A stretch of DNA of 64,000 nt, from the NCBI GenBank assembly GCA_963713955.1, contig OY970216.1:209934-273933 (forward strand). Reading direction: 5' to 3'. Under the pieces are notes generated by a model. It did no database searches. It had not been told where the DNA came from and saw only the letters and a program-made list of their open reading frames with translations. The first letter of the stretch is position 1. Every line of letters starts with the position of its first letter. Below, piece after piece: positions 5,091 to 52,906 of this stretch. The translations under genes were made by a program, and so were the position numbers. The stretch is from an uncultured bacterium. Lineage in GTDB: Bacteria > Patescibacteriota > Minisyncoccia > UBA6257 > GWB1-50-10.

Positions 5091-5241
5091 ACCCTCTATT
5101 ATAGCACACGTATACCAAGAAAGTCTTCCAGTTTTCCCCTTAGAGGTGGTCCCGCCTCAAGGCCTTTTGAGCGCGCACGCGCGGGCGTGGTCTCTAACGG
5201 GGTGAATGTGCTATAATCTTTATGAGCTAAGAAAGTTTGCC

Positions 5242-6291
5242 ATGAAGAAACTATTTTCAAACCCGCTTTTCCATCTGGCTATTATCCTCTTTGTGGTTTT
5301 GGGATTGGAGGGGTACTTGATGGTTCATGCGCAATATATGCCGCCGGCAAACCAGCCGCCGTTTGATAGTTCTTATCCGCCACTTGATACGGGTTCTTCT
5401 CTACAGACCAAGTCAGGAAGCTTGGTGGTAGGCAATTCGTCTCAGGCGTTGCGGTTGCAATTGTCGCCAGCGGGCATTCAATGGGTTGACAGTAACGGCA
5501 ATGTAAGTAGTTCTATGACTTATGACATTAATCTGCAGGGCATAAGGGTAACTGCTGGGGGTTACTCTTCGGTCTTGGGGTATAATTGGCAATCATCCAA
5601 CGGCGGAGCTCTCATTTCCAATGGACCTCTTGTCGTTGGTGCGTCTAATCCTAATTCAGTGTCCAGTTTGAGCAGTGGTAATTTGGTAATCCCTGATTTA
5701 TCTGTCGTTGGTCCGGATGGGTCAAGTAGTTTGAATTTTTACGCGAACCCGCTGGGAAATGAAAACAGGCAAGGCTTGGGGCCGGTTATTTTGTCAGGGG
5801 GGTATTTTTCGACAAATTCTATGCTCGCCAAAAACGGCAATACTGCCGTTACGGGTCCAGAGTCGGGCATATTTGTCAACCCGGCCGGTGGTTTTATTGC
5901 CCTGGGAACCAGTATAGGTAGCACAAAGGATAGTTCTTTCAGCAACAGCTCTCTGTATTTTGCTGGACCAGTGTTAAAAATCTATGCGAACGGAGATGTG
6001 GATGCTCTGCAGGGTTCAGTCGAGTATGCAAGACCACCGGACTCAGCCAATGCGAGTGTTTTCTCAAAAATTGTGGCCGGTGGCGTCTCCGCCAACAGCC
6101 AGTTAATGACGCAATTATATAACAATACGTCCACTTATAATAATGACGTCCAGATTGTTGATCAGTCGGGAAGCATGGTCGAAAACTGCCCCGATGGATA
6201 CTTTGTGAGCGGTGTTGCATTTGGTCACGGTAAAAATGATACCAAGGAGGCGATAATGCTAATGTGCGCGCGTATGTTCCCATCGTTTTAA
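5242..6291 (+). CDS. Secreted paralog 1 of a tandem three-gene family (N-motif DTGSSLQTKSGSL, C-terminal CPDGYFVSG...C).
   Basis: Signal-peptide-like MKKLFSNPLFHLAIILFVVLGLEGYLMVHAQ (start 5242 by codon arithmetic; the ORF track starts at 5206). Shares N- and C-terminal motifs with the next two ORFs. Confidence 0.6.
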   Translation: MKKLFSNPLFHLAIILFVVLGLEGYLMVHAQYMPPANQPPFDSSYPPLDTGSSLQTKSGSLVVGNSSQALRLQLSPAGIQWVDSNGNVSSSMTYDINLQGIRVTAGGYSSVLGYNWQSSNGGALISNGPLVVGASNPNSVSSLSSGNLVIPDLSVVGPDGSSSLNFYANPLGNENRQGLGPVILSGGYFSTNSMLAKNGNTAVTGPESGIFVNPAGGFIALGTSIGSTKDSSFSNSSLYFAGPVLKIYANGDVDALQGSVEYARPPDSANASVFSKIVAGGVSANSQLMTQLYNNTSTYNNDVQIVDQSGSMVENCPDGYFVSGVAFGHGKNDTKEAIMLMCARMFPSF

Positions 6292-6294
6292 GTT

Positions 6295-7791
6295 ATGAAA
6301 AATTATCTGCCAATATTTTTGTTCGTCATCCTGATGTCAATCGCGTTCGCCTTTATCGCGCAAGCGATCAATGTTCCGCTTGATACCTCTTCAGCACCGC
6401 AGTCCAAGGCTGGTTCTCTACATTTTACTTCTTCCAGTATGGATTCCTATATCGGTGATCTCACAGGAGGTGATGTGTTGGGATTTGGCAATGGCGGTTC
6501 TTACGCGACTCTGAGACTCTCCAATGGAGTGTTTAGTGTTTTTTCACCTGCCCTGAATCAAAACTCTGAGGTGCCATTGTGGTTTGCCACGACAACCGGA
6601 ATTTATACGCCCCAAAACCTGTTTGTCACCACGAGTTCACTCGTTGGCAGCATCCCGGCGGATGCCAGTTCTTTAGAGATTTTGGGATTCACCCCGCTGC
6701 CTCCCGATAGTGGTAGCTACTGCGGTAACCAGTCGTACGGCGACAGATTGTTCGGCTGTTCTTCCACGACGCCGAACGTAGGTCTTTATGGTAGCTCATC
6801 GTGGGGTGAGGGAGCGATACTCTTTAATTTGTTTGCGAGTTCAACGGACGGATATGCAGCTAATTGGCCGGTGTCACCGGTAAATGGTAATCAGTCTTCG
6901 TTTGGGATCCTATTTGGTAATGCGTTGGGCAACGGTTTGTCGATAAACGCGTCGGCGCCATTAACCCAGGCTCAAAAAGATAATCAGAAAACTATCAGGG
7001 ATGTCTGGCGTGCAGGGCTTATGCTTGGTTTTGACGGAAGTGCTGTTTTAGGTGCACCTCCGTCCAGCGCAGAATATGCTTTTGAGATAATAACGAATAA
7101 AACCTGCGATGTCGGCAGCGGATGTACCGGGTTTGTAAAGATTGCCTCGAGTTCAGAAGACTTCTTCCGGTATGGTACTTCTGTGACTGCTGGCTATCCG
7201 GCGTACTTCGGCGCAAGAGAAAACTATGCCAGCGGAACGATCGGCTATTGTGATGACTGTACGACAAGCAATTTGAAACCGGAATATAGGTACAAGCGAA
7301 TAATGCAGCCAGCTGATACTACCGTTCGCGCACTCGACGTAGATTTGCTGAATCCATCGTGGAGTAACTGGTGGACCAGTTCGGCGGATCAGGATTGGTT
7401 AAATACTTTAAATCAGTTGGGACAAGGTATCACATGTGCGGGTACTAATAGCAAAGCGGTAAGTCAAAACGGGGCAGGCGGCATTATATTCTGGCCGACG
7501 GGGAGCGTCATTTGTAATTATGCGGGCGGTGGAGCATCGGCGCAGAGGATTTTTGAAACAAGTAATACGAGCTCTCATTACCTTGAGCCAGACTGGACTG
7601 ATTATAATCATATGACAACGAATTCAAGTCCAACATTTTTCACGAATACGTGGGCAACATGCCCACCAGGCTATTTTGTAAAAGGTATCAAGTATGGTAA
7701 ACGCACGTTGGCAACAAAGGGAGGAAGTCTCTTGGGAGAGAATTATTACGACGGTATAGTCCCATCAATAATGTGCGACAGATTGTGGTAG
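6295..7791 (+). CDS. Secreted paralog 2 (N-motif DTSSAPQSKAGSL, C-terminal CPPGYFVKG...C).
   Basis: 498 aa. Signal peptide MKNYLPIFLFVILMSIAFAFIAQA. Ser/Gly/Thr-rich, many Cys. Conserved motifs shared with flanking paralogs. Separated by 4 nt from paralog 1. Confidence 0.6.
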   Translation: MKNYLPIFLFVILMSIAFAFIAQAINVPLDTSSAPQSKAGSLHFTSSSMDSYIGDLTGGDVLGFGNGGSYATLRLSNGVFSVFSPALNQNSEVPLWFATTTGIYTPQNLFVTTSSLVGSIPADASSLEILGFTPLPPDSGSYCGNQSYGDRLFGCSSTTPNVGLYGSSSWGEGAILFNLFASSTDGYAANWPVSPVNGNQSSFGILFGNALGNGLSINASAPLTQAQKDNQKTIRDVWRAGLMLGFDGSAVLGAPPSSAEYAFEIITNKTCDVGSGCTGFVKIASSSEDFFRYGTSVTAGYPAYFGARENYASGTIGYCDDCTTSNLKPEYRYKRIMQPADTTVRALDVDLLNPSWSNWWTSSADQDWLNTLNQLGQGITCAGTNSKAVSQNGAGGIIFWPTGSVICNYAGGGASAQRIFETSNTSSHYLEPDWTDYNHMTTNSSPTFFTNTWATCPPGYFVKGIKYGKRTLATKGGSLLGENYYDGIVPSIMCDRLW

Positions 7792-7809: not shown

Positions 7810-9138
7810 ATGAATACAAATAAAATCCTAACAATTTTCGCATCAGTTCTGCTAGTTGCCGTGCTTTTTACCTGGAGAGCTATGGCCTACAATGAGCCAA
7901 GCTATCCCGCACCAGGCGGATCGGTAAATTCGGCGATAGACACCGGCCCCTATGCCCAGAGTAAAAGCGGTCGGCTCGACATTAACATAAACGGGGGTGA
8001 TCTTGTTTTGTCTACGTCATCCATGCCCCAGATCCAGTTCAGCGACAGCGGAGGGGAGGGCATTTTAGAAATGGCCCAAATACCCAATGTTGGTTATGTT
8101 CCTTCGCTTCAATGGAGTACCAATCCGCCGGTGGCTTTAGCGGGTGAGTGGTATGTAACGTCGACTCAAGGTGGTACTATCTTCTCCTACTCACCTTATA
8201 ATGTTGGTATATCAATCCCGCCTTTTACTAGTGGTCCTTCTCAAAGCGCTCTCGGTGAGCTGGTGATGGGAGATGGGAGCAATGCTGGGCTGGTTCTCAA
8301 TGCGGGAAACGGTGGAAACTACATAACATACGGCGCTCATTATGATAATTCGTCAGCGAGTTTAGGTTGGATAGCTAACTCTTCTTCGGGAAATTATCAT
8401 CCGATGCAGATTTATTTCTCGGGAGACGGCAATCAGCTGGCCTTGAGAGTCGGAGATTCCCAACCTGATACCAGTGTACTATGGAAGAGTTCGCTGGCTA
8501 TTGATTCTTCGAATTCTACTATAACATTCAGTGATAGGTATGCAGGTACTGTCATGGGCCCTCATTTTGAATATATGCCGCAAAGCATTCCGTCCGGAGC
8601 GACCGCGACAGATTATACCCAGCAGTTCCTGAGTAGTAATCCTAACGTTAAATCTTATACCGATATATCGGGAAATAGATGTATGGCCTATACGGAGAAC
8701 TTTCCCACTATTATCTCTTCGCCTCCGTCTAACTTGTGCAATGCTTCTGACTTTGGGAAGGATATATATGCCTATCTCAACCATGCTCAGTATGATGAGA
8801 ACGATAACCTCACCTGTGGTCTCACGGCTTACTACCGGTGTGTCGCCGATCAACAGGATCCTCGGAATAACACTTCGAAACTTTACGTCGGTGTTTTGGA
8901 GTTGAAAGACCAAAAATGGAGCGGCACAGTGGAAGCGAGTACGACTATAAGTGGCGATGCGCTCGAATTGAAACTCGGCAATTCATATTACGATTCCTGG
9001 GTCATGTGTCCAAACGGCTATTTCTTGAGTGGAATACACACCTCTGTCTTAAGTAAATCAGGACAATCAACGAGTTACAATATAGTCAACGATGGAAAGA
9101 ATGTAAATGATGCTTACATAGAATGCAGCAAATTATAG
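7810..9138 (+). CDS. Secreted paralog 3 (N-motif DTGPYAQSKSGRL, C-terminal CPNGYFLSG...C).
   Basis: 442 aa. N-terminal hydrophobic ILTIFASVLLVAVLF. Same conserved terminal motifs as paralogs 1 and 2. Confidence 0.6.
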   Translation: MNTNKILTIFASVLLVAVLFTWRAMAYNEPSYPAPGGSVNSAIDTGPYAQSKSGRLDININGGDLVLSTSSMPQIQFSDSGGEGILEMAQIPNVGYVPSLQWSTNPPVALAGEWYVTSTQGGTIFSYSPYNVGISIPPFTSGPSQSALGELVMGDGSNAGLVLNAGNGGNYITYGAHYDNSSASLGWIANSSSGNYHPMQIYFSGDGNQLALRVGDSQPDTSVLWKSSLAIDSSNSTITFSDRYAGTVMGPHFEYMPQSIPSGATATDYTQQFLSSNPNVKSYTDISGNRCMAYTENFPTIISSPPSNLCNASDFGKDIYAYLNHAQYDENDNLTCGLTAYYRCVADQQDPRNNTSKLYVGVLELKDQKWSGTVEASTTISGDALELKLGNSYYDSWVMCPNGYFLSGIHTSVLSKSGQSTSYNIVNDGKNVNDAYIECSKL

Positions 9139-9144: not shown

Positions 9145-11295
9145 ATGACTAGATTATCCATCAAAAAACTTTTCGTCTTCTTCGCTGGGGCAATTGTGGT
9201 AGGGGGAGCGTTTGTGATAACTGGCCATTATGTACTTGCCCTGACGACGGTGCCTGGGGGTAACAATGGCGGCGGGACGGCGGGGAATAATATATCAGTT
9301 CAGATACTGGTTAATGGGGCGTCGAACCTATCCGCCGGTTCGGTAATAGGAAGTAGGATAGACTGCGGAGAGGGAAGCAATATTTGCGGTGGCAGCATAC
9401 CGACGGGTGCAACGAGCGTCACCTTCACGGAGACCCCCGCATCAGGTTACATCTTCAATTCGTGGGGGGGCGATTGCAATAACACGACCGGTAACACGTG
9501 TACCGTGAGTTGGGGTCAAGATCCCACGCCGACGAGCATAAATGTTATTGCTAATTTTGTTTCTTCCCCGGTTCCGTCGCCAGTATCCAGTGCTCTATCT
9601 GTGCAAGTAACCGTCGGCGGGAGTGTCAATAACAGTGCTGGTGTAGTTTCAAGTACGGCGGCGAGCGCGGGAGTTCCTCCTATAAAGTGCGGTGGGAATT
9701 CAACAAACTGCAGCACTAGTTTGAAATTCCCCCCGTCGCAGCGGATTACCCTCACGGCTTCTCCAGCGGGAGGGTACACGTTCTCCGGGTGGAGTTTCTC
9801 AGGGGCTGCTGTTGATACCAATTGTCCGGCGACAGATCTTACTTGCATGGTCGCAAATGATGGGTGGACCACAGCAGGCACCGTCTCAGCCAACTTCACT
9901 AAAATAACCCCTGCTTTTGCCGGTAATATTACGGCGAACATCGTTTACGCGTCGACGACCGGCGGGACGGCGACGGTGTATTTGAGCTGGCCGGCGGCCA
10001 AGAACGCACCGGGAGTAACGTATGCCATTTCGAGAGGTAGCACTCCCGTGGGTAGTACAGCGTCAACCTCATACTATGATACGTCAGCGCCGTTAGGAAA
10101 TTCCGCTACGGTATACAGCATCACGGTAAGCGGTATAAGTGGTAGCATGACGTCTAATTCTCTTGACCTGAACTTACAGAAGGTGCTCACCGGTTATGCG
10201 TGGGCGAACGCCAATGCCTCCACGGTGAGTGGCAGCACTGTGACTACAAAATCGACAAAGTCCTATAACTGGAATAGCGCAAGCACTCCTTTCGATGTGA
10301 GCGGGAGCGCAAGTTCCAATTCTATTACTCTGAGTTTTTCCGAGCCGGCGTCAGGATCTTCTAATTGGTCGCAAGATCCTTCCGCTGATGAAGCCGTCTA
10401 TAGATGTCCGGATTCGGGTTATACTCTCAACTGCAAAAATGTAAGTCAATCTTTGAATGTAAACCCGGGTGGTACGTGGTCTTTTACTGATTCCAATTTG
10501 GTTTTTGCATCGACTTACTACTACGAAGTGGCAACTCATGACCAATATGGCAGCATGTACATAGTATATTTGGCTGCCACGACGAACAGCGCGGCCAACT
10601 ATCAAGGCATCGGCTGGATCAAATTCAGTTCGGACACAACCTCATCGCCGTCGGATACCAATCAGTACGGTGTGTATATTGATGACAAAGGGAATCTTTC
10701 CGGGTATGCCTGGAGCGGGATGCAGTGTCCTTCGGGCCAGAGCGGCAACTGCGGCTACGGTTGGCTCTCGTTCAACGAGAGCGATGCGTCCCATCAGCGT
10801 GGATCGTTCACAGGTGCCGGTCTCACGGATTGGGCAAGATTTCTCACGTTTGCAAACGGCGGGAGTTCCTGGGACGGCTGGGTGAATTTAGGCGGCGTTT
10901 CGTACGATCCTTCGACGAAGATGTTCGGCGGCAGAACGCCGACGTTGCCCGTGGATGTTCTGGGCCAGATGTCTTTCTGCGATCCGAATAACGGAGCGAA
11001 CTATTGCGTCAGGGGAACGCCACCACCGCAGCCGCCGATAATCAAGCCGGTCTCCGCCGTAACGTATAACAGCTTCACGGTGAACTGGACCAATCCGCAG
11101 AAGTATACGAAGATTGAAGTTTATGTCAGCAAGCCAAATAATTCCACTGATTTTAGTTCTCCTCCTGCCGACCAACCGGTATTTGCAACCACGAGTCAAA
11201 GCTACGTCAATGCGACGACAAGTATCCTCTCGGTCCCGGTAAATGCCCTCCCCAATATGCAATATGGCATGTTTGTCAGAGGATATCTAAAATAG
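9145..11295 (+). CDS. Large secreted/surface protein with divergent InlB B-repeat-like domains, GYAW...GWI(S/K)F repeats and a C-terminal fibronectin type III-like domain.
   Basis: 716 aa. N-terminal TM/signal FVFFAGAIVVGGAFVITG. InlB-B-like unit (GSVIGSRIDCGEGSNICGGS...GYIFNSWGGDCNNTTGNTCTV...VIANF). Repeats GIGWIKFSS..., GYAWSGMQCPSGQSGNCGYGWLSFNESDA. Fn3-like VTYNSFTVNWTNPQKYTKIEVYVS. Confidence 0.6.
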   Translation: MTRLSIKKLFVFFAGAIVVGGAFVITGHYVLALTTVPGGNNGGGTAGNNISVQILVNGASNLSAGSVIGSRIDCGEGSNICGGSIPTGATSVTFTETPASGYIFNSWGGDCNNTTGNTCTVSWGQDPTPTSINVIANFVSSPVPSPVSSALSVQVTVGGSVNNSAGVVSSTAASAGVPPIKCGGNSTNCSTSLKFPPSQRITLTASPAGGYTFSGWSFSGAAVDTNCPATDLTCMVANDGWTTAGTVSANFTKITPAFAGNITANIVYASTTGGTATVYLSWPAAKNAPGVTYAISRGSTPVGSTASTSYYDTSAPLGNSATVYSITVSGISGSMTSNSLDLNLQKVLTGYAWANANASTVSGSTVTTKSTKSYNWNSASTPFDVSGSASSNSITLSFSEPASGSSNWSQDPSADEAVYRCPDSGYTLNCKNVSQSLNVNPGGTWSFTDSNLVFASTYYYEVATHDQYGSMYIVYLAATTNSAANYQGIGWIKFSSDTTSSPSDTNQYGVYIDDKGNLSGYAWSGMQCPSGQSGNCGYGWLSFNESDASHQRGSFTGAGLTDWARFLTFANGGSSWDGWVNLGGVSYDPSTKMFGGRTPTLPVDVLGQMSFCDPNNGANYCVRGTPPPQPPIIKPVSAVTYNSFTVNWTNPQKYTKIEVYVSKPNNSTDFSSPPADQPVFATTSQSYVNATTSILSVPVNALPNMQYGMFVRGYLK

Positions 11296-11417: not shown

Positions 11418-12716
11418 ATGAAAACGATCATTCTTTCGGCTTTAATGCTCCTCATGAGCATTGCGCCGATAGATGTTTTGGGACAACAAAGTTCTGTGGC
11501 CCAAAAGGTGAACGGCTGTAACATCAGTCTCAAGTATAGTTGGTTCCCAGGCGGAGGCAGCATCAACGTGAGATCCGTGGCAGTTGTCAATGGAACCATC
11601 ATTGCTGGGACTACTGGCTGGAACGGGACAGCGTTCGTTGCGCCGGTGTATGTTTCTCAGGATACCGGCAAAACGTGGATTCCAATTGATTCCGCGAGAG
11701 GTCTCAATATTCCATGGAACCGGGTTTTCTCAGTATCTGCCGTGGATTCTCATCAGGTTATCATCGGAGCTGATTGTGGGATATACAAATCAATGGATTC
11801 CGGACTGCACTGGATTCAAGTTTATAATGATCCCAATGCTGGTTTTGGAGTATCCTACCTTGGCTACGATACTGTCATAGCCTGTGGTGGCCCCGGCGCC
11901 CTGAAGTCGAATGACAACGGTAATACTTGGCACTATGTAAGTAACGAGAACGTTGGCTGGGTAGTGAAAGCGCCAAATGGAAATCTGGTCAGTGGTATAG
12001 GAAGTGCTTTCGAGAGTGATGCTAAAGGTATCGTGATATCGTCTGATGGAGGGAATAATTGGGAGTCCTCCAACACGGGACTTACCAACAAAAACATATT
12101 TTCCCTGTCTGCCGATAGATCTGATGTCTATGCTGTCACTCATATCGGTGGCACATTTGTATCGCACGATGATGGCTCTTCATGGAGTCCGGTAACCAAT
12201 CTTCCTGATCAAGGGGAAGTTGTATCGACGATAAGTGGTTTGGGTGTGTTCGCTGGTTTCAGCCAGTCGGGTCAGCCAACCCTTTACTGGTCTCGTGACG
12301 GATCGAGTTGGTCTGCGGTCACCGTGTTCGACAATTGGCCGTTCTCGTTTGCTGAATTTGACTCAACCACCGTCGTTATCGGAACCGAAAGCGGCGTATG
12401 GATTGCGCACTTTGATAATCTCACTCCAGTTATCGAGCACCCTACAATTGCCACAAACTTCGCGTTATCCCAGAACTACCCGAACCCGTTCAACCCGACC
12501 ACTGCTATCAGATTCACGGTTTCAAAGAGAAGCTTTGTAACGCTCTCGGTCTACAACGTCCTTGGCCAGTTGGTGAAAACCCTGGTCAATGACGAGAAAA
12601 GTCCGGGAACTTACGAAGCAAGCTTTGACGGTACTTCACTCCCGTCGGGCACCTACATCTATCGTTTGCAAACTGATTTATACTCGCAGACGAAGAAAAT
12701 GGTTCTTTTAAAGTGA
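11418..12716 (+). CDS. BNR/Asp-box repeat beta-propeller protein (sialidase-like or Ycf48-like fold) with a type IX secretion system C-terminal sorting domain (Por_Secre_tail type).
   Basis: 432 aa. Signal peptide. Six S-x-D-x-G-x-(T/S)-W repeats (SQDTGKTW, SMDSGLHW, SNDNGNTW, SSDGGNNW, SHDDGSSW, SRDGSSW). C-terminus LSQNYPNPFNPTTAIRF...LSVYNVLGQLVKTLVN...SGTYIYRLQTD...KKMVLLK matches the T9SS CTD consensus. Extended -10 promoter ttgtggtataat and RBS aaaggag upstream. Confidence 0.75.
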   Translation: MKTIILSALMLLMSIAPIDVLGQQSSVAQKVNGCNISLKYSWFPGGGSINVRSVAVVNGTIIAGTTGWNGTAFVAPVYVSQDTGKTWIPIDSARGLNIPWNRVFSVSAVDSHQVIIGADCGIYKSMDSGLHWIQVYNDPNAGFGVSYLGYDTVIACGGPGALKSNDNGNTWHYVSNENVGWVVKAPNGNLVSGIGSAFESDAKGIVISSDGGNNWESSNTGLTNKNIFSLSADRSDVYAVTHIGGTFVSHDDGSSWSPVTNLPDQGEVVSTISGLGVFAGFSQSGQPTLYWSRDGSSWSAVTVFDNWPFSFAEFDSTTVVIGTESGVWIAHFDNLTPVIEHPTIATNFALSQNYPNPFNPTTAIRFTVSKRSFVTLSVYNVLGQLVKTLVNDEKSPGTYEASFDGTSLPSGTYIYRLQTDLYSQTKKMVLLK

Positions 12717-12727
12717 TCTTGTTCAAG

Positions 12728-12764
12728 GAGGTTCAGCTTAAAAACTGAACCTCTTTTCCGTTTT
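12728..12764 (+). terminator. Terminator hairpin gaggttcag-cttaaaaa-ctgaacctc plus ttttccgtttt. Copy 1 of a repeated terminator; the second copy is at about 19070.
   Basis: Perfect 9-bp stem immediately after the BNR gene stop, then a T-run. A near-identical element (cttgttcaa[a/g]gaggttcag...ctgaacc..ttttccgtttt) recurs at 19061-19108. Confidence 0.55.
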
Positions 12765-13119
12765 GCGCAGTCTAATTTCCAAAATCCCCACACTCGATGC
12801 TAGTTTTTGGAGAAGAGGGGCAAAAAGATGAGAAGTCATAGGGCTTTCTGGATTTGGTACCCCCTTCATTCTGGAGGTACCCGAGTGAAGCGGTGATTAA
12901 AGGGTTTTGAGAGGTCAGATTGAAGGGGTAGCTACTCCTCGAAATCGGGGTTATGCTGGTAAAAAGTTCGGATTTTGTCCAAGAGAGACAGCTCGCAAAG
13001 TTAGCCGATAAATCTTTGCTAAAATCCTCATCTTTAATAACGAAAGGTGGGTTAGAAGAAAAGTGCCCGGAACGATGAAGAGAAATGGGAGTTGAAATCA
13101 ACTCCCATTATAAACCTAC

Positions 13120-13590
13120 CTAAGAAACATTTTCAATCAAATAGCTACGATTGTTACAAGAGACCTCTTCTCCTTTCTTCCTGCCCATGCATGCACGGGC
13201 TAGCGGAGCAGATGGGGTAAGAGTGGTAACTACCGAGTTGTTCACTTGGATATTTTCCCCTCCGGCCCTCAAAACGATGAAGCAAATTCTGATACCGCCC
13301 GACGTTCCCTTATCTTTCAATTCAATCAATGAACCAACGCTTACAGTACCTTTGTTGTAGTGGATCGGCGTGGTAACAACATAGTTCAGGTCCTCCTGCG
13401 CCTTCTGCAATTGTTGTTGCAGTCCGGCAGCCAAGTGGCTGAGCTGGGATTTTGACGTATCAGAATGGCTCTCACTGCTGCTCGGCGCATCAATGGCGCG
13501 CTCTCTGGTGTCTTTTAAAGAGGCCTCCAATTCTTTCACGCGCCCTCTCAGCAGATCGGCCAGCGCTGAAACGATTTCCTCTTTATTCAT
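13120..13590 (-). CDS. GreA/GreB-family-like protein (C-terminal FKBP-like domain of transcript cleavage factors).
   Basis: 156 aa. C-terminal VSVGSLIELKDKGTSGGIRICFIVLRAGGENIQVNNSVVTTLTPSAPLARACMGRKKGEEVS resembles the GreA C-terminal domain pattern (GS.V.L.D..G....Y.IVG..EAD...G.IS..SPLA.AL.GK..GD.V). The N-terminus is not clearly a Gre coiled-coil, so assignment is moderate. A hairpin terminator (gggagttgatttcaactccc) follows at about 13085-13119. Confidence 0.45.
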   Translation of the reverse strand: MNKEEIVSALADLLRGRVKELEASLKDTRERAIDAPSSSESHSDTSKSQLSHLAAGLQQQLQKAQEDLNYVVTTPIHYNKGTVSVGSLIELKDKGTSGGIRICFIVLRAGGENIQVNNSVVTTLTPSAPLARACMGRKKGEEVSCNNRSYLIENVS

Positions 13591-13770
13591 GACAAATAGC
13601 TCCTTTCAAGCTTGAATAGTTACAAAATTATGTATACATTTTCCCGTAAACTCTGAACCCATAATGAGCAGGTAAAAAATATCAAATGATTAGGTTCTAA
13701 TAATTAGTAAATCACAAATATGAAGAAAGGTCAACTGCATTCTTCCTCGGAAGGTAATACAATCAAAACT

Positions 13771-14328
13771 ATGGATATTTATTTGGTGACAAGGAATAAA
13801 GGTAAATTGCTGGCAGCGAACAGCGCCTTCGATAACACGGGTATCTTTCTTAAGCCAGTAGAAAGAGACTATCCGGAAATCCAGGCTGATACCAGTGCAG
13901 AAATAGCAAAGTACACAGCCCTTGAGGCAGCTAAAAATTTGGGGGCTCCAGCCATTAGAGAGGATCACAGTTTGGTACTTAACGCACTAGACATCCCAGG
14001 GCCATACATGAACTATTTTGAAAAACATGTTCCTCCGGAGAAAATACTTAAAATATTAGAGCGTTTCAACGATCGCTCTGGTTATTTCGAAGTCGCAACT
14101 GCTTACGCGGAGCCGGATGGCGAAGTGCAGCAATTTTCATTCAGAGTTCCCTTCAGAATCAGCAAAGAGATGCGCGGGAAATTACAAACCGGCTGGAACA
14201 AAATCTTGGTTCTTGAGGGGGAAACGCGTACACTGGCTGAATATCCAGAAACGGAAAGAACGCATATCTGGAATAAAAACTATTTGGCGATAGTAAAATA
14301 TCTCAAGGAAAACTCTAAAATTTCCTGA
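13771..14328 (+). CDS. Ham1/RdgB-like non-canonical purine NTP pyrophosphatase (ITPase family), tentative. The ORF track begins at 13720; the ATG at 13771 gives MDIYLVTRNKGKL.
   Basis: IYLVTRNKGKLLAANSAF (compare TGNxGKxxE), REDHSLVLNALDIPGPYMNYF (compare DDSGLxVDALxGxPGxYSARY). Family-level similarity only. Confidence 0.4.
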   Translation: MDIYLVTRNKGKLLAANSAFDNTGIFLKPVERDYPEIQADTSAEIAKYTALEAAKNLGAPAIREDHSLVLNALDIPGPYMNYFEKHVPPEKILKILERFNDRSGYFEVATAYAEPDGEVQQFSFRVPFRISKEMRGKLQTGWNKILVLEGETRTLAEYPETERTHIWNKNYLAIVKYLKENSKIS

Positions 14329-15007
14329 ATACGCCACGGAAGACAGAACGCCATCCCGTATTTACCAAGCTCCTATAAGTTGCCACCTTACTCTCTGGTC
14401 TGATTTTTAATTCTCTAAGAAGACCGAGTATCCTCGATTTCGGCAAGAGTACCATATGCAAACCTTCCTTCGTAAGGAAAGTGAATTTGTCCACATTTAG
14501 TTTCTTAAAAGGAACCTTACTATTTTTTGCATAAAACATGTTTATGCAAACGTATCCTCCCCTTTTCAAAACCCTTGCCGTCTCTCCTACAGCCGCTCTC
14601 AACTCTGATAGAGAATCGACATTATGATAAATGCCATTGGCAATAATAACATTGAAGACCGAATCTTTAAAAGGGAGACGTTTCATATCGGCCATAACAA
14701 TTCTTTTATTAGTTTTATTCCTTAAATACTTTTTAGATTTTTCACGTGCACGCCGAACCATGGACTCGTGCAAATCGCAAGCCCACACGTCAAATCCCAT
14801 TTTGAGTAGTAACACGGTATTACGGCCAGCGCCACAACCTACATCTAAAACTTTCACTGACGCTGGATTTTCAAAGTTAGAAAAAAACTTTTCCCAGTAA
14901 GGAGGGGGTGGTAATAAAGAGAATTCCTCTACAATCTTAGGGTCATTCCAAAATAATTCTTCTGGGGATTTATACATTTTTAATGGCTTTGGTAACACGA
15001 TATCCAC
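14315..15007 (-). CDS. Class I SAM-dependent methyltransferase.
   Basis: 230 aa. Motif I VLDVGCGAGRNTVLLLKMGFDVWACDL, then the post-I acidic residue and motif II/III spacing. Confidence 0.7.
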   Translation of the reverse strand: MDIVLPKPLKMYKSPEELFWNDPKIVEEFSLLPPPPYWEKFFSNFENPASVKVLDVGCGAGRNTVLLLKMGFDVWACDLHESMVRRAREKSKKYLRNKTNKRIVMADMKRLPFKDSVFNVIIANGIYHNVDSLSELRAAVGETARVLKRGGYVCINMFYAKNSKVPFKKLNVDKFTFLTKEGLHMVLLPKSRILGLLRELKIRPESKVATYRSLVNTGWRSVFRGVFRKF

Positions 15008-16085
15008 CGTTCCAAATATGCGTGGAAAATGTTTTCATTCCCCTATCCCTAAAGGCCCTAATGCAAGTTCTAGGATTTTTAGTTATAGCGAATATTCCGG
15101 GTCCTACAGAAGATATTGCCAGAACATCGGCTATATTGTCTTTCTTCAAATACCTCAGGTCATCGCATAATTTGGTCAAACCGGGGTAGGTGAAAGAACA
15201 GTTTTCTATACTTCCCATTTCAAAGCGATATTTGTAAATAACATCACCTATTTTCGAGAGATCGTTACTGACCACCGATGGTAAGACCTCATGCAAGACT
15301 AGATATGCAATATCCTTTCCCCATTTTTTACCGGTAGCCACGAAGCGATGAAGATTTCTCTTTTCCATTGCCATAAGTTCCGCCGCATCAAGATCGGGGA
15401 CATCTTTCGGAATACCGATAACGACTTCGTAGCTCGCCGGTATTTTCATCTCAGCGATGGGAACACTTTCTCCGGCAAGCACTATCATTCCCGCTTTTTC
15501 TATACCACCGGCCGCCGAACCGCCGATGCACTGAACCGGAACGAGATACTCTTCATTGCCATCTATTTCCTCTCCGTGGTTTTGAGCAAGATACGTAATA
15601 AGTACCTGCCGAGGTATGGGATTCCCGTAAGCTTCATTGAACGCACAAGCCACAGCCGCGATAAGACTGCTGCTTGAACCGAGGCCGCAGTGTTTTATCT
15701 CGTTTTCGTTATCAACTTTGATATCGAATCCCTCTTTGAAACCTATAGCTCGTTTCATAAGGAAAGCCGAATGCATAATTAGTGATCGTCTCTTGGAAAA
15801 ATTATCGATAGCTATAGCGGAATCTTTACGTAGCGTTAATGTCACCTTTTTGAACAAGGGAACGACAAATAATATCTCTCCGGGGGTATACTTGAAATTC
15901 TTCTTGACGTCTATCTTACTGGGGTCTATAGCCATGGCATCAAGTCTGCTCGGATATAAAAGAACCAGCTTTCTGTACAAGAGACAGCAGCGTTTTACCT
16001 TTACTTTTATTGGATTAAAAAGGCTCCCCACTTTGAACAGTGAAGAGCCTTTAACTCTCGATAGATTTTTTTTAGTTTTGGGCAT
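14970..16085 (-). CDS. GHMP kinase family protein (beta-RFAP synthase / pantoate kinase-like). The ORF track begins with TTG at 16115; the first ATG is at 16085.
   Basis: GHMP signature HCGLGSSSSLIAAVACAF (P-x-G-S-G-L-G-SS-A-A type phosphate loop). N-terminal YPSRLDAMAIDPSKI resembles the TPSRLHFxLID start of the beta-RFAP-synthase subgroup. Overlaps the downstream methyltransferase by 38 nt. Confidence 0.55.
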   Translation of the reverse strand: MPKTKKNLSRVKGSSLFKVGSLFNPIKVKVKRCCLLYRKLVLLYPSRLDAMAIDPSKIDVKKNFKYTPGEILFVVPLFKKVTLTLRKDSAIAIDNFSKRRSLIMHSAFLMKRAIGFKEGFDIKVDNENEIKHCGLGSSSSLIAAVACAFNEAYGNPIPRQVLITYLAQNHGEEIDGNEEYLVPVQCIGGSAAGGIEKAGMIVLAGESVPIAEMKIPASYEVVIGIPKDVPDLDAAELMAMEKRNLHRFVATGKKWGKDIAYLVLHEVLPSVVSNDLSKIGDVIYKYRFEMGSIENCSFTYPGLTKLCDDLRYLKKDNIADVLAISSVGPGIFAITKNPRTCIRAFRDRGMKTFSTHIWNGGYRVTKAIKNV

Positions 16086-16644: not shown

Positions 16645-16821
16645 TGTCTTATTTCTCCTTTCGATTGACAAGTAAAACTTTTCCAAGAATACCACATAAA
16701 AACAATAATGTCAAAACATTTGGACTGACGATTTCAACATTGACATGCTAACAGAATTATTTAATAATAAAATTAGGCTCTTTTACAACCATCTAATCAG
16801 TCAGAAAGAAGGTGAAATACC

Positions 16822-18704: not shown

Positions 18705-18726
18705 ATTTTTATTTATTGTCTGTCTA

Positions 18727-19319: not shown

Positions 19320-19535
19320 ATGAGCCGACAATTTACCGCCATTTATAAAAAGACCGGGAAATGGTATTCTGCTTGGGTAGAAGAAATTCCCGGCGTTAAT
19401 ACTCAAGGCCGCACACTAAAAGAAGCCAAAGAAAATCTCAAGGAAGCTCTGGTGCTTGTTTTAGAAACGAGTAAACTTTTGGTCAAAAGCTCTGATTCTA
19501 AGGTTTTAAGAGAACCGATTTCCGTGTCTTTATGA
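19320..19535 (+). CDS. hicB: HicB-family antitoxin (UPF0150 fold), cassette 1.
   Basis: 71 aa. FTAIYKKTGKWYSAWVEEIPGVNTQGRTLKEAKENLKEALVLVLE matches the HicB N-terminal domain pattern (..Y.A.VPELPGC.TQG.TLEEA..N.KEAI.L.LE). The sigma70-like promoter ttgttt-N17-tattat is directly upstream. Confidence 0.7.
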   Translation: MSRQFTAIYKKTGKWYSAWVEEIPGVNTQGRTLKEAKENLKEALVLVLETSKLLVKSSDSKVLREPISVSL

Positions 19536-19723
19536 AGAGGCGCGAACTTGTGAATCGTATCATGAAGCAAGGTTGCGTTTTTGTACGCGAGGGCGCTAAG
19601 CATAGCGTCTTTTTTAATCCCGAAACAAAAAGAATTTCGACGGTACCGCGTCATCAGGAAATCAATAATTTCTTAGCCGAGAAAATCTGTCAGGACTTGG
19701 GCATACCAAAGTCGAGGAAATAG
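19532..19723 (+). CDS. hicA: HicA-family mRNA interferase toxin, cassette 1.
   Basis: 63 aa. KRRELVNRIMKQGCVFVREGAKHSVFFNPETKRISTVPRHQEI fits HicA (YcfA-like: K..E..K.L...G....R..GSH..F.HP.....TVP.H). Overlaps hicB by 4 nt. Confidence 0.75.
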   Translation: MKRRELVNRIMKQGCVFVREGAKHSVFFNPETKRISTVPRHQEINNFLAEKICQDLGIPKSRK

Positions 19724-19810
19724 CGGCTACGGCTGGTTCTCGTTCAACTCGAGTGATGTCCAGGGATGCTCACGAAGTAATACTCAGTGTCAGCCAATCG
19801 TCAGCTTAAT

Positions 19811-20284
19811 ATGAACACCTATTTGAAGAAGTTCATCGACTCCGAGTTTGACAGACCAGGTAAGGCGTTGGATCTGGGGGCGGGAGATTTTTTTGACGTG
19901 GTTTGCCTAAAGCAGCTGAAATGGCAATGCGAAGGCGTAGATATAAAGACCGGCGTTGACTTAGAGAAGCCCTACCTTTCTCCAAGGAGACCGTTTGATC
20001 TTGTTTATTCCAACTACTTAATCCACAAACTCAAGAACAAAAAGCAACTTATCAAGACAGTATTCAACAATTTAAAAAGCGGGGGTTGGTTTTTCCTCCA
20101 CACTTTTGACAAGTCAGATCCTAACAGCCGGTCAACTATTACTGCTAAGTCTATAGAAAATCTATTGAACAAAGAAAGTTTTAAAAGCATTGGCACGCGG
20201 ATTTTCAGCTATTACGATAATGAAGAGGGCCACAAGCATTGGCATAGGATTCTGGAGGTTACCGCGCAGAAACAAGAAGCATAA
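19811..20284 (+). CDS. Small class I SAM-dependent methyltransferase. Start at MNTYLKKF; the ORF track gives 19787.
   Basis: Motif I ALDLGAGDFFDVVCL. Motif-IV-like SGGWFFLHTF. About 158 aa. Confidence 0.6.
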   Translation: MNTYLKKFIDSEFDRPGKALDLGAGDFFDVVCLKQLKWQCEGVDIKTGVDLEKPYLSPRRPFDLVYSNYLIHKLKNKKQLIKTVFNNLKSGGWFFLHTFDKSDPNSRSTITAKSIENLLNKESFKSIGTRIFSYYDNEEGHKHWHRILEVTAQKQEA

Positions 20285-23699: not shown

Positions 23700-23963
23700 T
23701 TGTTGTATAATCTAGAAATGGCCAAGAAACAGCAGTTCAAAATTCTTATCGAGCAAGGTGATGACGGAATGTTTGTTGGGAGCGTTCCTTCCTTGCCTGG
23801 TTGTCATACGCAAGCTAAGACCCTCCCCGAGCTGAAGAAACGGATTCGGGAAGCGATTGAACTCTGTCTTGAAGTTGCCAAGGAAGATGCCAGCTACCGG
23901 GCGAGAATAAAACAGTTTGCTTACGAACCGACCTTCGTTGGCCTTGAGATGGTCAGCGTATGA
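23700..23963 (+). CDS. hicB: HicB-family antitoxin, cassette 2.
   Basis: 87 aa. FKILIEQGDDGMFVGSVPSLPGCHTQAKTLPELKKRIREAIELCLE is textbook HicB/UPF0150. Promoter ttgcat-N17-tataat lies 8 nt before the ATG (near-leaderless). Confidence 0.8.
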   Translation: MLYNLEMAKKQQFKILIEQGDDGMFVGSVPSLPGCHTQAKTLPELKKRIREAIELCLEVAKEDASYRARIKQFAYEPTFVGLEMVSV

Positions 23964-24187
23964 GCAGGCATCTACCTGTCTTGAAAGCAAAGGATGTTAT
24001 AAAGATTTTGAGAAAGCTGGGCTTTTATGAGGTGCGAACGAAAGGTTCGCACGTCTTTTTCAAGCATCCTGATGGCAGAGTGACGTTAGTCCCCGTGCAT
24101 AGGAGAGAAAATATAGGCAAAGTGCTCTTACATCAAATCATGAGAGAGGTTAAGATTACGCCTGAAGAATTCTCTAAGTTGTTATAA
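23960..24187 (+). CDS. hicA: HicA-family toxin, cassette 2.
   Basis: 75 aa. KAKDVIKILRKLGFYEVRTKGSHVFFKHPDGRVTLVPVHRRENIGKVLLHQIMREVKIT is the canonical HicA/YcfA signature. 4-nt overlap with hicB. Confidence 0.8.
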   Translation: MSRHLPVLKAKDVIKILRKLGFYEVRTKGSHVFFKHPDGRVTLVPVHRRENIGKVLLHQIMREVKITPEEFSKLL

Positions 24188-24522
24188 ATCCCTGCGGCTA
24201 CGGTTGGCTCTCTCTTTTCTCTTCAAGAGCTTCTTTGTTGAAAGAAATTTGGCAATCGGTTTCGCGCAGTTGGGACAAAAATCATAACTATCAAAACCAA
24301 TGCCGACGGAGATTGCTTCCCTCAGCTTCCTTAAACTCTTCCGACAGATATCACACTTGCGGATGATCATATCTTTTCTCTCGTGCAAGCAATTATACCA
24401 CGCCAAGATTTTTTTTCGAGGCCCTGTGGCTATGGTTTTCGAACAGCGCCGTTGGAGGATTCTTGGATTGCTCGTCGCCTCGGTGAAAACTCAATCTTCG
24501 TTTGCAAAGAGGCTAACAATGC

Positions 24523-51931: not shown

Positions 51932-52906
51932 TCATTTCGAGAAATCGAGGATAATATTGTCGACGCGGGGGGTCGAGTTCTGAAGGGAGTTCGTCTGGAG
52001 CATGAGCTCGTACCTGAAATAGCGGTAGTTGCTGAAATAAGTCGGGTTTACGCAAATCGGCGTACCTGGCGCGGGACAGGATGACAGCGTTCCTCCCGTG
52101 AGACTCTGGCTGCACGGCGCGCCGTACCAATTGCTTCCCGTGCCCGAGGGACCGATGTAATTCCAGGAGCTGCTTGTGCTATTCGAAGCCGCGATCTGGA
52201 ATCCCAATGCGGTCCCGGCAAGGCCACACGATCCTTGCCACACGATGCTCTGGAGAGTTGCTGGCCCGCCTGCGTCTATCGTGTACGATGTGAGATAACC
52301 CACGGTACTCGTTGATCTCCAACTGGTATTCACGAGATACGGCGCTGCCGAGCAATTGCCGCCGCCCGGATTCGAGCAGTTGAAACTAATCCATCCCGCG
52401 AGATCGTTCCACGCCCAGCCGTTGAAGTTGCCATTCGAGTCTATCGAGACGTCGTAGCTCACCGAACCGGGGCAGACGGCCGAATTTTGCCCGCCGCAGA
52501 AACTAATCCATCCCACGAGATCGTTCCACGCGAAACCGCTCAAAGCTCCCGTCGCGTCCGCGCCGCTGCAGGAACCGTCGGCGTTGTGCGTCGCGTTCGT
52601 GCCGTTGCAGATGCCGTAGTTTGAGGTGCCGCACAGGTTTCCGTTTCTGGTTGTGAAGCAATCGAGAGAGAGGTCGCCCACGGAAGAACTGGCATAGCCG
52701 CTTATTTTGGTGCCTGCGACAAGGACGGCTTGAGTCCCGTAAAAATCCCAAAAGCCGTCAAGCGGGTCGTAAGCCGACGAGCTGGTCGGTGAAGATGCTA
52801 TGTTGGTGCTTGCAGCAGCCGACGGGGCGCCGGAGAGTATCAAAAACAGGGTCATCGCGACGACAATCGCGACGAGTATCCAGAAAACGATCTTGACCGG
52901 TTTCAT
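51932..52906 (-). CDS. Secreted Cys-rich protein with GFAWNDLVGWISF / GWAWNDLAGWISFN repeats. Same repeat family as in the 9145 protein.
   Basis: 324 aa. Signal/TM IVFWILVAIVVAMTLFLILSG. Ser/Thr-rich linker. Two copies of G[FW]AWNDL[VA]GWISF followed by Cys clusters. Confidence 0.5.
   Translation of the reverse strand: MKPVKIVFWILVAIVVAMTLFLILSGAPSAAASTNIASSPTSSSAYDPLDGFWDFYGTQAVLVAGTKISGYASSSVGDLSLDCFTTRNGNLCGTSNYGICNGTNATHNADGSCSGADATGALSGFAWNDLVGWISFCGGQNSAVCPGSVSYDVSIDSNGNFNGWAWNDLAGWISFNCSNPGGGNCSAAPYLVNTSWRSTSTVGYLTSYTIDAGGPATLQSIVWQGSCGLAGTALGFQIAASNSTSSSWNYIGPSGTGSNWYGAPCSQSLTGGTLSSCPAPGTPICVNPTYFSNYRYFRYELMLQTNSLQNSTPRVDNIILDFSK

What the first reader, a model, noticed from the sequence alone, without database searches (positions are those of the whole stretch)
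9145..11295. Recurrent GYAW/GWISF-type Trp repeat shared by two secreted proteins and by relic fragments next to the TA cassettes
The motif G-[YFW]-[AG]-W-[SN]...G-[WY]-[IL]-[SK]-F-[NS] occurs at least four times in protein 9145-11295 (GIGWIKFSS; GYAWSGMQCPSGQSGNCGYGWLSFNESDA; DGWVNLGG). It occurs twice in protein 51932-52906 (GFAWNDLVGWISFCGG; GWAWNDLAGWISFNCSN). It occurs as decayed coding fragments at 19722-19814 and 24190-24212. The repeats are followed by Cys clusters, suggesting small disulfide-stabilised, possibly carbohydrate-binding or cell-wall-binding modules. This family links the adhesin operon, the second pilus-like module and the TA cassettes.
Basis: seen in the sequence. Interest (0 to 1): 0.5.

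Follow-up and report, generated by a model that had tools for sequence, protein, structure and literature searches.

The report
Uncatalogued four-hairpin Trp surface-protein domain
The Gly-Trp motif is real: it marks a widespread extracellular protein domain of unknown function that no domain database lists, built from four beta-hairpins, but sharing it does not tie the three loci together functionally.

Summary
The similarity is homology, not chance. An HMM built only from relatives of ORF B finds ORF A at E=1e-6 among all six-frame segments of the window. A generic unit HMM gives 4e-9.

The motif is one hairpin of a roughly 130-160-aa module. The module has four hairpins (consensus YGVxIDxxGxLSGYAWSENxGWIxF) followed by a closing strand, Y.V.T.W. 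AlphaFold2 models it confidently (pLDDT 92). Its best structural matches are weak ones to 8-stranded up-and-down beta-barrels.

A two-unit profile finds 8,389 protein clusters (50% identity). These are mostly secreted or anchored multidomain proteins, and a few are type IV pilins. Pfam, NCBIfam and PDB sequences have no model or relative for it.

ORF B belongs to a conserved ~320-aa Patescibacteria family: one module plus a discoidin/CBM32-like domain. ORF A has one module, and its first hairpin is split by a nested ~120-aa insert.

The fragment at 19716-19811 is a credible 5'-truncated relic of another A-like gene. The fragment at 24192-24212 is only a 21-nt exact match. Both sit directly 3' of hicA, which is unexplained. 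The domain's function is not known.

The parts
9145..11295 (+). ORF A, 716 aa. A multidomain surface protein: N-terminal signal or anchor, InlB-B-repeat-like domains, FN3-like domains, one four-hairpin module, and a C-terminal FN3.
   Evidence: ORF list. Pfam Flg_new_2 at 1.3e-8. fn3 at E=0.0055 for aa 626-716. Orthologues with the same operon in L113 and L114.
10183..10206 (+). ORF A hairpin 1, first strand (VLTGYAWA, aa 347-354).
   Evidence: Generic HMM partial hit. BLASTP aligns SLDLNLQKVLTGYAWA with TLDLSKMSPMKGWAWA of the L113 orthologue, E=0.009.
10225..10578 (+). Insert of about 120 aa (FN3/Ig-like by eye) nested in the turn of hairpin 1. It is absent from the orthologues.
   Evidence: The orthologues have GWAWA, then 8-14 aa, then GWIKF. 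No significant Pfam match; weak Ig_J_second at 0.058.
10609..10632 (+). ORF A hairpin 1, second strand (IGWIKFSS, aa 489-496).
10666..10779 (+). ORF A hairpin 2. This is the one strongly canonical unit: YGVYIDDKGNLSGYAWSG, a 14-aa Cys loop (C526, C536), then GYGWLSFNE.
   Evidence: 30.7 bits against the B-derived HMM. 23.9 bits, i-E 3.4e-6, against the generic HMM.
10819..10896 (+). ORF A hairpin 3, a variant form (GLTDWARFLTF...WDGWVNLGG).
   Evidence: Conserved in P0121, L113, L114 and L116 (GWARF/GWAKF...WDGWV.L). Not significant on its own.
10897..11016 (+). ORF A hairpin 4, degenerate (YDPSTKMFGG...VLGQMSFCD), plus the closing segment NYCVRG.
   Evidence: Aligns with canonical hairpins in relatives: SWAWGSSVTGWMSF (L114) and GHAWGSEVAGWLSF (P0121).
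51932..52906 (-). ORF B, 324 aa. N-terminal TM helix, one four-hairpin module, and a C-terminal jelly-roll domain. Member of a conserved ~320-aa Patescibacteria family.
   Evidence: 674 homologues, 45-70% identity over the full length. AF2 pLDDT 89.
52313..52810 (-). ORF B four-hairpin module (aa 33-198). R0 is AYDPLDGFWDFY, R1 is GYASSSVGDLSLDC, R2 is GFAWNDLVGWISFC, R3 is GWAWNDLAGWISFNC, and the closing strand is YLVNTSW. The loops between hairpins are Cys-rich.
51935..52312 (-). ORF B C-terminal domain (aa 199-324), a galactose-binding-like (discoidin/CBM32/ephrin-LBD-like) jelly roll.
19716..19811 (+). Relic 1, a 5'-truncated in-frame remnant (GNSGYGWFSFNSSDVQGCSRSNTQCQPIVSLI*) of an A-like gene. 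It has no start codon and overlaps the hicA stop codon.
   Evidence: 81% DNA identity to 10744-10786. Half of the 8 mismatches are synonymous third-position changes. Its Cys-loop tail resembles the L114/L116 orthologues, not window ORF A.
24192..24212 (+). Relic 2, a 21-nt exact copy of 10749-10769 (..CGYGWLS..) lying 4 nt after the hicA stop. It also lies inside the 3' end of a 74-aa minus-strand ORF.
19320..19723 (+). hicB-hicA cassette 1.
   Evidence: ORFs. Precomputed Pfam HicA_toxin and UPF0150 on the identical locus L111.
23700..24187 (+). hicB-hicA cassette 2. Its protein sequences are unrelated to cassette 1 beyond family level.
   Evidence: ORFs. Pfam HicA_toxin and HicB_lk_antitox on L111.

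Best explanation
The G-[YWF]-A-W...G-W-I-x-F motif is the signature of one beta-hairpin of a widespread extracellular protein domain that no database lists.

The domain. It has four consecutive units, with generic consensus (Y/G)GVx(I/V)DxxGxLSGYAW(S/G)ENxGWIxF, followed by a closing strand Y.V.T.W. AlphaFold2 predicts a compact beta-barrel-like fold. The invariant Gly, Ala and Trp residues are most likely structural. The conserved [ED]-N turns would cluster at one end of the barrel and the long variable loops at the other; in Patescibacteria those loops are disulfide-bonded.

ORF B. It is a membrane-anchored member of a conserved Paceibacteria-type family that couples one such module to a discoidin/CBM32-like jelly roll.

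ORF A. It is a large adhesin-like surface protein carrying one module. Hairpin 1 is split by a nested insert, hairpin 2 carries a Cys loop, and hairpins 3 and 4 are degenerate.

Inferred function. The module is a display or binding module of cell-surface proteins, and occasionally of type IV pilins. Its loops would determine the ligand. In episymbiotic Patescibacteria it plausibly contributes to attachment.

The hicA-adjacent pieces. They are non-functional 5'-truncated remnants of another A-like gene copy.

Shown: homology, module architecture, distribution, absence from catalogues, predicted fold class. Inferred: barrel topology in detail, the roles of conserved residues, and any binding function.
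For: Homology. The B-derived HMM hits A at 1e-6 and the generic HMM at 4e-9.

Four-hairpin periodicity in independent proteins.
- Runs of 4 hairpins before a closing strand occur 49 times, against 20 for runs of 3 and 12 for runs of 2.
- The modal number of hairpins per protein is 4 (63 of 148 proteins).
- P0148 and P0183 show 4+4 and 4 units, each run ending in AYKV(S/T)T.W, as in B's YLVNTSW.

Distribution. 8,389 representatives at E<=1e-3 and 4,932 at E<=1e-10.

Extracellular context.
- Co-occurring PKD, TSP3_bac, Laminin_G_3, Big and FIMAH domains.
- 106 of the 142 hits that start with Met have an N-terminal hydrophobic run.
- 3 of 149 are GFTLIE-type pilins with the module at the C-terminus.

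No catalogued family or solved relative.

A's four hairpins are confirmed by orthologues.

Relic status.
Against: - No experimental or ligand information exists, so the binding role is inference from context.
- Model coordinates could not be inspected. The strand count is therefore uncertain: DSSP shows about 11 strands, so short beta-1 strands add to the 8 core strands. Whether the Trp side chains face inward or outward is also unknown.
- Proteins with 11-13 uninterrupted hairpins and no detectable closing strand (P0136, P0137, P0139) may fold differently.
- A's hairpins 3 and 4 are not individually significant.
Confidence: 0.72

Rival explanations
1. The similarity is chance or convergent. 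On this view, short Gly/Trp-rich strings arose independently in two Ser/Gly/Asn-rich secreted proteins.
For: The pairwise BLASTP is modest (E=3e-5, 33% over 60 aa). A's hairpins 3 and 4 score about 0 bits.
Against: HMMs built without A find it at 1e-6 and 4e-9 against all six-frame segments. The four-unit architecture and the flanking beta-1 strand (YGVYIDDKGNLSG) are shared. Orthologues restore canonical hairpins at the degenerate positions.
Confidence: 0.02
2. It is a divergent member of a known repeat: the Listeria GW/SH3b module, choline-binding (CW_binding_1) repeats, YD/RHS repeats, or a beta-propeller blade.
For: It shares a Gly-Trp signature, aromatic beta-hairpins and an extracellular location. 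Y.V.ID..G.l.G superficially resembles YD repeats. These resemblances are recalled from memory.
Against: There is no Pfam or NCBIfam match, even at permissive thresholds, for A, B or canonical repeat proteins. There is no PDB sequence relative. The predicted fold matches 8-stranded barrels, not SH3, solenoid or propeller. The four-unit closure contrasts with open-ended arrays.
Confidence: 0.05
3. The hicA-adjacent pieces are not random debris. They would mark a recombination hot spot in the hairpin-2 loop of A-like genes. Either hicBA cassettes insert there site-specifically, or the truncated copies act as silent donors for gene conversion of the expressed adhesin, as pilS cassettes do.
For: - Two unrelated hicBA cassettes each end 4-20 nt before the same 19-nt core.
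- A third, independent 5'-truncated A-like gene in another organism (L115) starts at the same point..PN|GWLSFNPSD, right after a terminator.
- The region just upstream is hypervariable among orthologues.
- By my estimate, three breakpoints falling in a ~60-nt stretch of a 2.1-kb gene has a chance of roughly 1e-3.
Against: - The relics are tiny (21 and about 95 nt) and have only one conserved anchor.
- No recombinase, integrase or reverse transcriptase was seen nearby, and the mismatches are not adenine-specific, so this is not a diversity-generating retroelement (DGR).
- ORF A is identical in three samples and the island is identical in others, so there is no sign of variation.
- The 19-mer is not enriched in other genomes (background hits only).
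- Homology may simply become undetectable upstream because the loop is hypervariable.
Confidence: 0.1
4. The module is a dedicated type IV pilus accessory element. ORF B would work with the adjacent PilM-like protein and small membrane proteins as part of the pilus machinery.
For: - B is divergently adjacent to two small membrane proteins and a 504-aa PilM-like protein (TIGR01175 E=2.7e-7).
- Homologues of ~505-547 aa lie within a few kb of B in L003 and L004.
- A few pilins carry the module.
Against: - The PilM match is far below the family cutoff (29.9 against 133 bits).
- Synteny is equally conserved on the other side (CorA-CysS-DnaB-RecR), so it may only reflect lineage-wide gene order.
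- In L112 and the P0115 locus the neighbours are large surface proteins, with no PilM-like gene in view.
- Most module proteins, including A, have no pilus context.
Confidence: 0.12

Closest known systems
Choline-binding / cell-wall-binding repeats (Pfam CW_binding_1, PF01473)
   Same: Short aromatic-rich beta-hairpin units with conserved Gly and Trp/Tyr, arranged in tandem in extracellular bacterial proteins.
   Different: Those repeats are ~20 aa and form an open superhelix that binds choline between hairpins. Here the units are 29-40 aa with an extra beta-1 strand. They come in closed sets of four with a closing strand and are predicted to form a barrel. There is no HMM match.
Listeria GW modules (SH3b-like, Pfam GW PF13457)
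   Same: Named for a Gly-Trp dipeptide; a surface-protein module.
   Different: GW modules are ~80-aa SH3-like domains that bind lipoteichoic acid. There is no sequence match and the predicted fold differs.
Small 8-stranded up-and-down beta-barrel binding proteins (hemophilin 7re4, HpuA/TbpB barrel lobes, avidins, YceI)
   Different: They have no internal four-fold sequence repeat and share only 4-17% identity. Foldseek finds nothing significant. The relation is fold class, not family.
Discoidin / CBM32 / ephrin-receptor LBD galactose-binding-like jelly rolls
   Different: This applies to the C-terminal domain, not to the Trp repeat. There is no sequence-level match.
Neisseria pilS silent pilin cassettes (for the relics only)
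   Same: 5'-truncated, promoterless partial copies of a surface-protein gene that share a short conserved DNA block next to a hypervariable segment.
   Different: The relics here are 21-95 nt with a single anchor. No variation of ORF A was seen across samples, and there is no evidence of gene conversion.

Membership tests
Four-hairpin GxAW...GWIxF module (uncurated; defined here) | Significant match to a unit HMM built from unrelated members. | tested here: met
   ORF A 4e-9 and ORF B 4e-18 against the six-frame window. The B-derived HMM hits A at 1e-6.
Four-hairpin GxAW...GWIxF module (uncurated; defined here) | Four consecutive hairpins followed by a closing strand (Y.V.T.W). | tested here: met
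   B has R0-R3 plus YLVNTSW. A has H1-H4 by orthologue alignment, and its closing strand is degenerate (NYCVRG). Family-wide, the modal number of hairpins is 4.
Four-hairpin GxAW...GWIxF module (uncurated; defined here) | Compact barrel-like fold. | tested here: inconclusive
Conserved ~320-aa Patescibacteria family (ORF B family) | Full-length collinear similarity: TM helix, module with conserved Cys, and C-terminal domain. | tested here: met
   674 hits, the top ones at E=1e-152 and 70% identity over 100% of the length, with 39 invariant columns.
Conserved ~320-aa Patescibacteria family (ORF B family) | Conserved neighbourhood: (CorA)-CysS-DnaB-RecR downstream, and a divergent small membrane protein upstream. 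| tested here: met
   Window genes 47520-51847, plus L003, L004, L112 and the P0115 locus.
Listeria GW module / SH3b | Match to Pfam GW/SH3 models and an SH3-like fold of about 80 aa. | tested here: not met
   No Pfam hit at E<=0.1-10. Fold matches are barrels.
Choline-binding repeats (CW_binding_1) | ~20-aa hairpin repeat matching PF01473, in open-ended arrays. | tested here: not met
   No Pfam hit. The units are 29+ aa and come in sets of four.
Diversity-generating retroelement VR/TR pair (for gene A against relic 1) | Mismatches confined to adenines of the template repeat, with a nearby reverse transcriptase. | tested here: not met
   The 8 mismatches involve all bases and 4 are synonymous third positions. 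No RT was seen among the annotated neighbours. The whole window was not scanned for RT.
HicAB toxin-antitoxin cassettes (neighbours of the relics) | A small HicB-like ORF overlapping a HicA_toxin ORF. | tested here: met
   ORFs 19320-19535/19532-19723 and 23700-23963/23960-24187. Precomputed Pfam HicA_toxin and HicB_lk_antitox/UPF0150 on the identical locus L111.
Type IV pilus machinery component (ORF B) | Sequence membership in a Pil family, or strict co-occurrence with pil genes. | tested here: inconclusive
   B has no Pil family match. The neighbouring 504-aa protein matches pilM only weakly, at 29.9 bits against a cutoff of 133. A PilM-like gene lies nearby in 3 of 5 loci.

The most novel reading that the evidence does not exclude
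The hairpin-2 loop of A-like adhesin genes is a genuine recombination hot spot. Unrelated hicBA cassettes, and in another organism a different sequence, have repeatedly replaced the 5' part of such genes at the same few codons. This leaves promoterless 3' copies anchored by a conserved 19-nt block. These copies could serve as a reservoir for adhesin variation in a Patescibacterium, a pilS-like or cassette-exchange system not described for this phylum.
Probability: 0.08. Interest if true: 0.7.

Novelty: new variant of a known kind. Interest (0 to 1): 0.4.

Why it matters
Patescibacteria and many other uncultivated bacteria depend on surface proteins for attachment, yet most of those proteins cannot be annotated. 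This motif defines a large domain family: at least 8,389 clusters at 50% identity. It has no Pfam or NCBIfam model and no solved structure, but it does have a confident predicted fold and a clear four-hairpin architecture.

Cataloguing it would annotate thousands of 'hypothetical' surface proteins. It would also give a concrete target for binding and structural studies of how episymbionts attach to their hosts.

The finding does not reveal a new mechanism, and the proposed link between the three loci is not functional.

Tried and rejected
1. A word-index homologue search with A's C-terminal 186 aa found only P0121 and missed A itself. The same tool given a unit alignment returned only 55-82-aa fragments (the first attempt was too short). 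Both were uninformative about breadth. The exhaustive representative search answered that question.
2. A scan of GTDB genomes for the 19-mer gave 105 single hits in unrelated, mostly high-GC genomes, which is background. The window's own genome is not in that set.
3. The DUF7453 hit to A's module (E=0.044, 13 bits) was not reproduced by canonical members, so it is spurious.
5. A module-level HMM from family B covers other members only partially, because its Cys-rich loops are lineage-specific.
6. The DGR idea for gene A and relic 1 was rejected on the mismatch pattern.
7. The idea that hicBA sits in slots bounded by a shared left element was rejected. The 29-nt element at 18944-18972 and 23541-23569 is part of terminator-like hairpins that follow several unrelated genes.
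8. tblastn of a canonical member against phage and plasmid collections found no match.
9. The afdb50 fold library was unavailable.
10. Rfam found nothing in the window, and there are no tRNAs.
11. Literature searches for the motif string and for Patescibacteria pilin/adhesin papers found no description of this repeat.
Full report
OBSERVATION

Regex versions of the motif occur in no other reading frame of the window, apart from the two reported fragments and two weak chance hits. Direct BLASTP of A against B aligns A489-547 with B131-179 at E=3e-5.

IS IT MORE THAN CHANCE?

ORF B has 674 homologues, 45-70% identical over their full length. All are unannotated, and those with names come from Patescibacteria (Jorgensen-, Brenner-, Colwellbacteria, Paceibacterota). 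From 50 of them I extracted 100 copies of the two canonical units and built an HMM that contains no ORF A sequence.
- Against all 2,782 stop-to-stop segments of the six-frame translation, this HMM finds ORF A at E=1e-6.
- The segment 19677-19811 is the next-best hit, at E=0.49.
- A second, generic unit HMM was built from 480 units of 148 unrelated proteins. Its consensus is NYGVTVDGTGNLSGYAWSENIGWISFNCA. It gives ORF A 4e-9 and ORF B 4e-18.

The similarity is therefore homology. Within A only hairpin 2 is strongly canonical: YGVYIDDKGNLSGYAWSG, a 14-aa loop, then GYGWLSF. GIGWIKF is a partial match. DGWVNL and GQMSF are not significant by themselves.

WHAT THE REPEAT IS

Alignment of the B family shows four units:
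- AWDDxxGWWDFY;
- GYASSSxGDISLDC, a degenerate unit;
- two copies of GYAWNDxxGWISFNC.

These are followed by YKVNTxW. Conserved Cys pairs sit in the loops after units 1, 2 and 3.

AlphaFold2 with this alignment gives pLDDT 89 for the whole protein, and pLDDT 92 with pTM 0.88 for residues 33-198 alone. In the model each unit is a short beta-1 strand, a turn, a long beta-2 strand (..LSGYAWN), a tight turn (D/E-N-x-G) and a beta-3 strand (WISF).

I could not inspect the coordinates, so the exact strand count and the orientation of the Trp side chains are not established.

HOW WIDESPREAD, AND IS IT KNOWN?

A two-unit profile (B plus four short repeat proteins) was searched exhaustively against 1.84 billion cluster representatives. 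It finds 8,389 proteins at E<=1e-3 and 4,932 at E<=1e-10, with up to 21 matched stretches per protein.
- Generic members lack the Cys loops.
- The other domains they carry are extracellular: PKD, TSP3_bac, Laminin_G_3, Big, FIMAH.
- Of the 142 hits that start with Met, 106 have an N-terminal hydrophobic segment.
- Three of 149 are type IV pilin-like proteins (GFTLIE N-terminus) with the module at the C-terminus.
- One named member comes from Desulfobacterales, so the domain is not confined to Patescibacteria.

Hairpins come in fours:
- runs of four before a Y.V.T.W-type closing strand occur 49 times, against 20 for runs of three and 12 for runs of two;
- the modal number of hairpins per protein is 4, with a secondary group at 8;
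- P0148 is a clean 4+4 example and P0183 a clean 4.

No catalogue covers it:
- no Pfam-A or NCBIfam model matches the repeat in A, B or canonical members, even at permissive thresholds;
- no PDB sequence is related;
- no phage or plasmid record matches;
- literature searches found no description.

It is therefore not a GW/SH3b module or a choline-binding repeat.

ORF A IN DETAIL

Pfam finds InlB-B-repeat-like domains (Flg_new_2) in the N-terminal half of A and a weak fn3 at the C-terminus.

A metagenome scan recovered orthologues (L113, 754 aa; L114, 722 aa; L116). L113 and L114 show the same operon: ClpP, then secreted paralogues ending in a CPxGY...C motif, then A, then a BNR protein with a T9SS-type C-terminal domain.

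The orthologues show all four hairpins clearly:
- GWAWA, 8-14 aa, GWIKF;
- GYAWSG, a Cys loop, GYGWLSF;
- GWAKF...WDGWVSL;
- SWAWGSSVTGWMSF.

In the window's ORF A, the first strand of hairpin 1 is GYAWAN at aa 351-356. BLASTP places SLDLNLQKVLTGYAWA on the orthologue's TLDLSKMSPMKGWAWA at E=0.009. Its partner strand, GIGWIKF, is at aa 489-495. So an insert of about 120 aa, FN3/Ig-like by eye, is nested in the hairpin-1 turn. The multiple alignment placed this gap badly, so I rate the nested-insert reading as likely rather than certain.

THE FRAGMENTS

A sensitive blastn of the A region against the 12.8-27 kb stretch finds only three matches:
- 10744-10786 to 19716-19758 (81% identity, E=2e-5);
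- 10749-10769 to 24192-24212 (21/21, E=0.008);
- an unrelated terminator-region match.

The 19-nt core occurs three times in the window, against 0 expected.

Relic 1 reads in frame as GNSGYGWFSFNSSDVQGCSRSNTQCQPIVSLI*. It has no start codon and overlaps the hicA stop. Four of its eight mismatches to ORF A are synonymous third-position changes. Its Cys-containing tail resembles the L114/L116 orthologues (GYGWLSFNEQSGCPSGGDC) rather than window ORF A. It is best read as the remnant of a different A-like copy that diverged while it was still coding.

Relic 2 is only the 21-nt core. It lies 4 nt after the second hicA stop and inside the 3' end of a 74-aa minus-strand ORF. Calling it 'coding' is not justified.

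Both hicBA identifications rest on precomputed Pfam hits on an identical locus.

UNEXPLAINED

Two hicBA cassettes with dissimilar proteins both end a few nucleotides before the same core. In addition, a 5'-truncated A-like gene in another organism (L115) begins at the same place (..PN|GWLSFNPSD), right after a terminator hairpin.

This could indicate a recombination hot spot in the hypervariable hairpin-2 loop. Alternatively, homology may simply become undetectable upstream of the conserved block.

I found nothing that supports a dedicated mechanism:
- no recombinase was seen nearby;
- the mismatches show no DGR-like adenine bias;
- ORF A and the island do not vary across samples;
- the core is not enriched in other genomes (background only).

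THE CLAIMED LINK BETWEEN LOCI

B's neighbourhood is conserved on both sides. On one side lies (CorA)-CysS-DnaB-RecR. On the other, transcribed divergently, are small membrane proteins and, in 3 of 5 loci, a ~505-547-aa protein. That protein matches pilM only weakly: 29.9 bits against a cutoff of 133.

A's locus has no pilus genes in any of three genomes, and the TA-adjacent pieces are debris. Sharing a domain found in more than 8,000 protein clusters does not connect these loci functionally. A role for B in pilus biology remains possible but is unproven.

MECHANISM (INFERRED)

I propose that the module is a rigid extracellular scaffold.
- The Gly, Ala and Trp residues of each hairpin build the core.
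- The conserved acidic-Asn turns cluster at one end and may form a cation or ligand site.
- The long inter-hairpin loops at the other end vary between proteins. In Patescibacteria they are disulfide-stapled.

The module is displayed on anchored proteins, adhesin-like giants and some pilins. It most likely mediates binding. In ORF B it would act together with a lectin-like jelly roll.

My confidence in the domain definition is high. It is moderate for the barrel fold and low for any specific ligand.

VERDICT

This is a large, uncatalogued surface-protein domain family, a new variant of the familiar theme of aromatic beta-hairpin repeat modules. It is not a new system. Interest is moderate.

Noticed in passing
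window 11418-12716 (+), 25455-26831 (-), relic 18784-18912 (+); L113 6866-8239; L114 6937-8271: BNR/sortilin-like proteins carry a bona fide T9SS type-A C-terminal sorting domain (Por_Secre_tail, E=7.6e-11 and 2.8e-7) in what is otherwise a Patescibacterial genome, a group not expected to have a T9SS or an outer membrane. The gene directly follows the ORF A orthologue in two other genomes. The two window copies are inverted and flank the low-GC stretch, and a 42-aa 3' relic with its terminator lies at 18784-18972.
   Followed up: partly
window 5206-6291, 6295-7791, 7810-9138 (+); L113 2938-4483; L114 3523-4599: Upstream of ORF A lie three paralogous secreted proteins. They share an N-terminal P..D(T/S)....Q.K.G.L motif and a C-terminal CPxGY(F)..G...C tail. 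None has a Pfam or NCBIfam family, and the set is conserved in the orthologous operons.
   Followed up: no
window 42145-42229, 45345-45443, 47439-47519: Three copies (87-91% identical) of a palindromic intergenic element of about 85 nt. Each folds as 25-34-nt arms around a 31-nt loop. There is no Rfam match. They could be REP/MITE-like elements, terminators or a small RNA.
   Followed up: no
window 18916-18972, 20333-20363, 23517-23569, 25410-25452: A family of terminator-like hairpins plus a T-rich tail (..TTTTCTGCGTTTACGCGGCTTGTTTC) is reused downstream of several unrelated genes in the 12.8-25.5 kb stretch. Identities are 90-97%.
   Followed up: partly
window 12000-26000 versus 26000-64000: GC content steps from 0.41-0.45 to 0.50-0.56 near 26 kb. 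The low-GC part holds the two hicBA cassettes, several methyltransferases and the gene relics, which suggests a zone of gene flux.
   Followed up: no
window 24182-24406 (-): A 74-aa ORF has two CxxC pairs (zinc-ribbon-like) and no Pfam match. It is convergent with hicA-2, and its last codons overlap the 21-nt relic.
   Followed up: no
L005 2-1086 (Colwellbacteria MAG JACPKH010000011.1): An ORF B family gene is split into two overlapping reading frames (P0124 is the 59-aa tail) and sits next to a second 330-aa gene. This is either a pseudogene or an assembly frameshift. It shows that decayed copies of this family occur elsewhere.
   Followed up: partly
window 38001-41103: Five consecutive genes start with near-identical prepilin N-termini (KGFTLIEMLVVIAMIG) downstream of the 33.7-37.9 kb ORFs I read as pilB/pilT/pilC without running a family search on them. 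This main type IV pilus locus is about 10 kb from ORF B and contains none of the Trp modules.
   Followed up: no
L115 300-700 (Ga0078972_1076389): An A-like gene in a different, AT-rich organism lacks everything upstream of ..GWLSFNPSD. It starts about 45 nt after a strong terminator hairpin, and its FN3 tail continues in another frame.
   Followed up: partly
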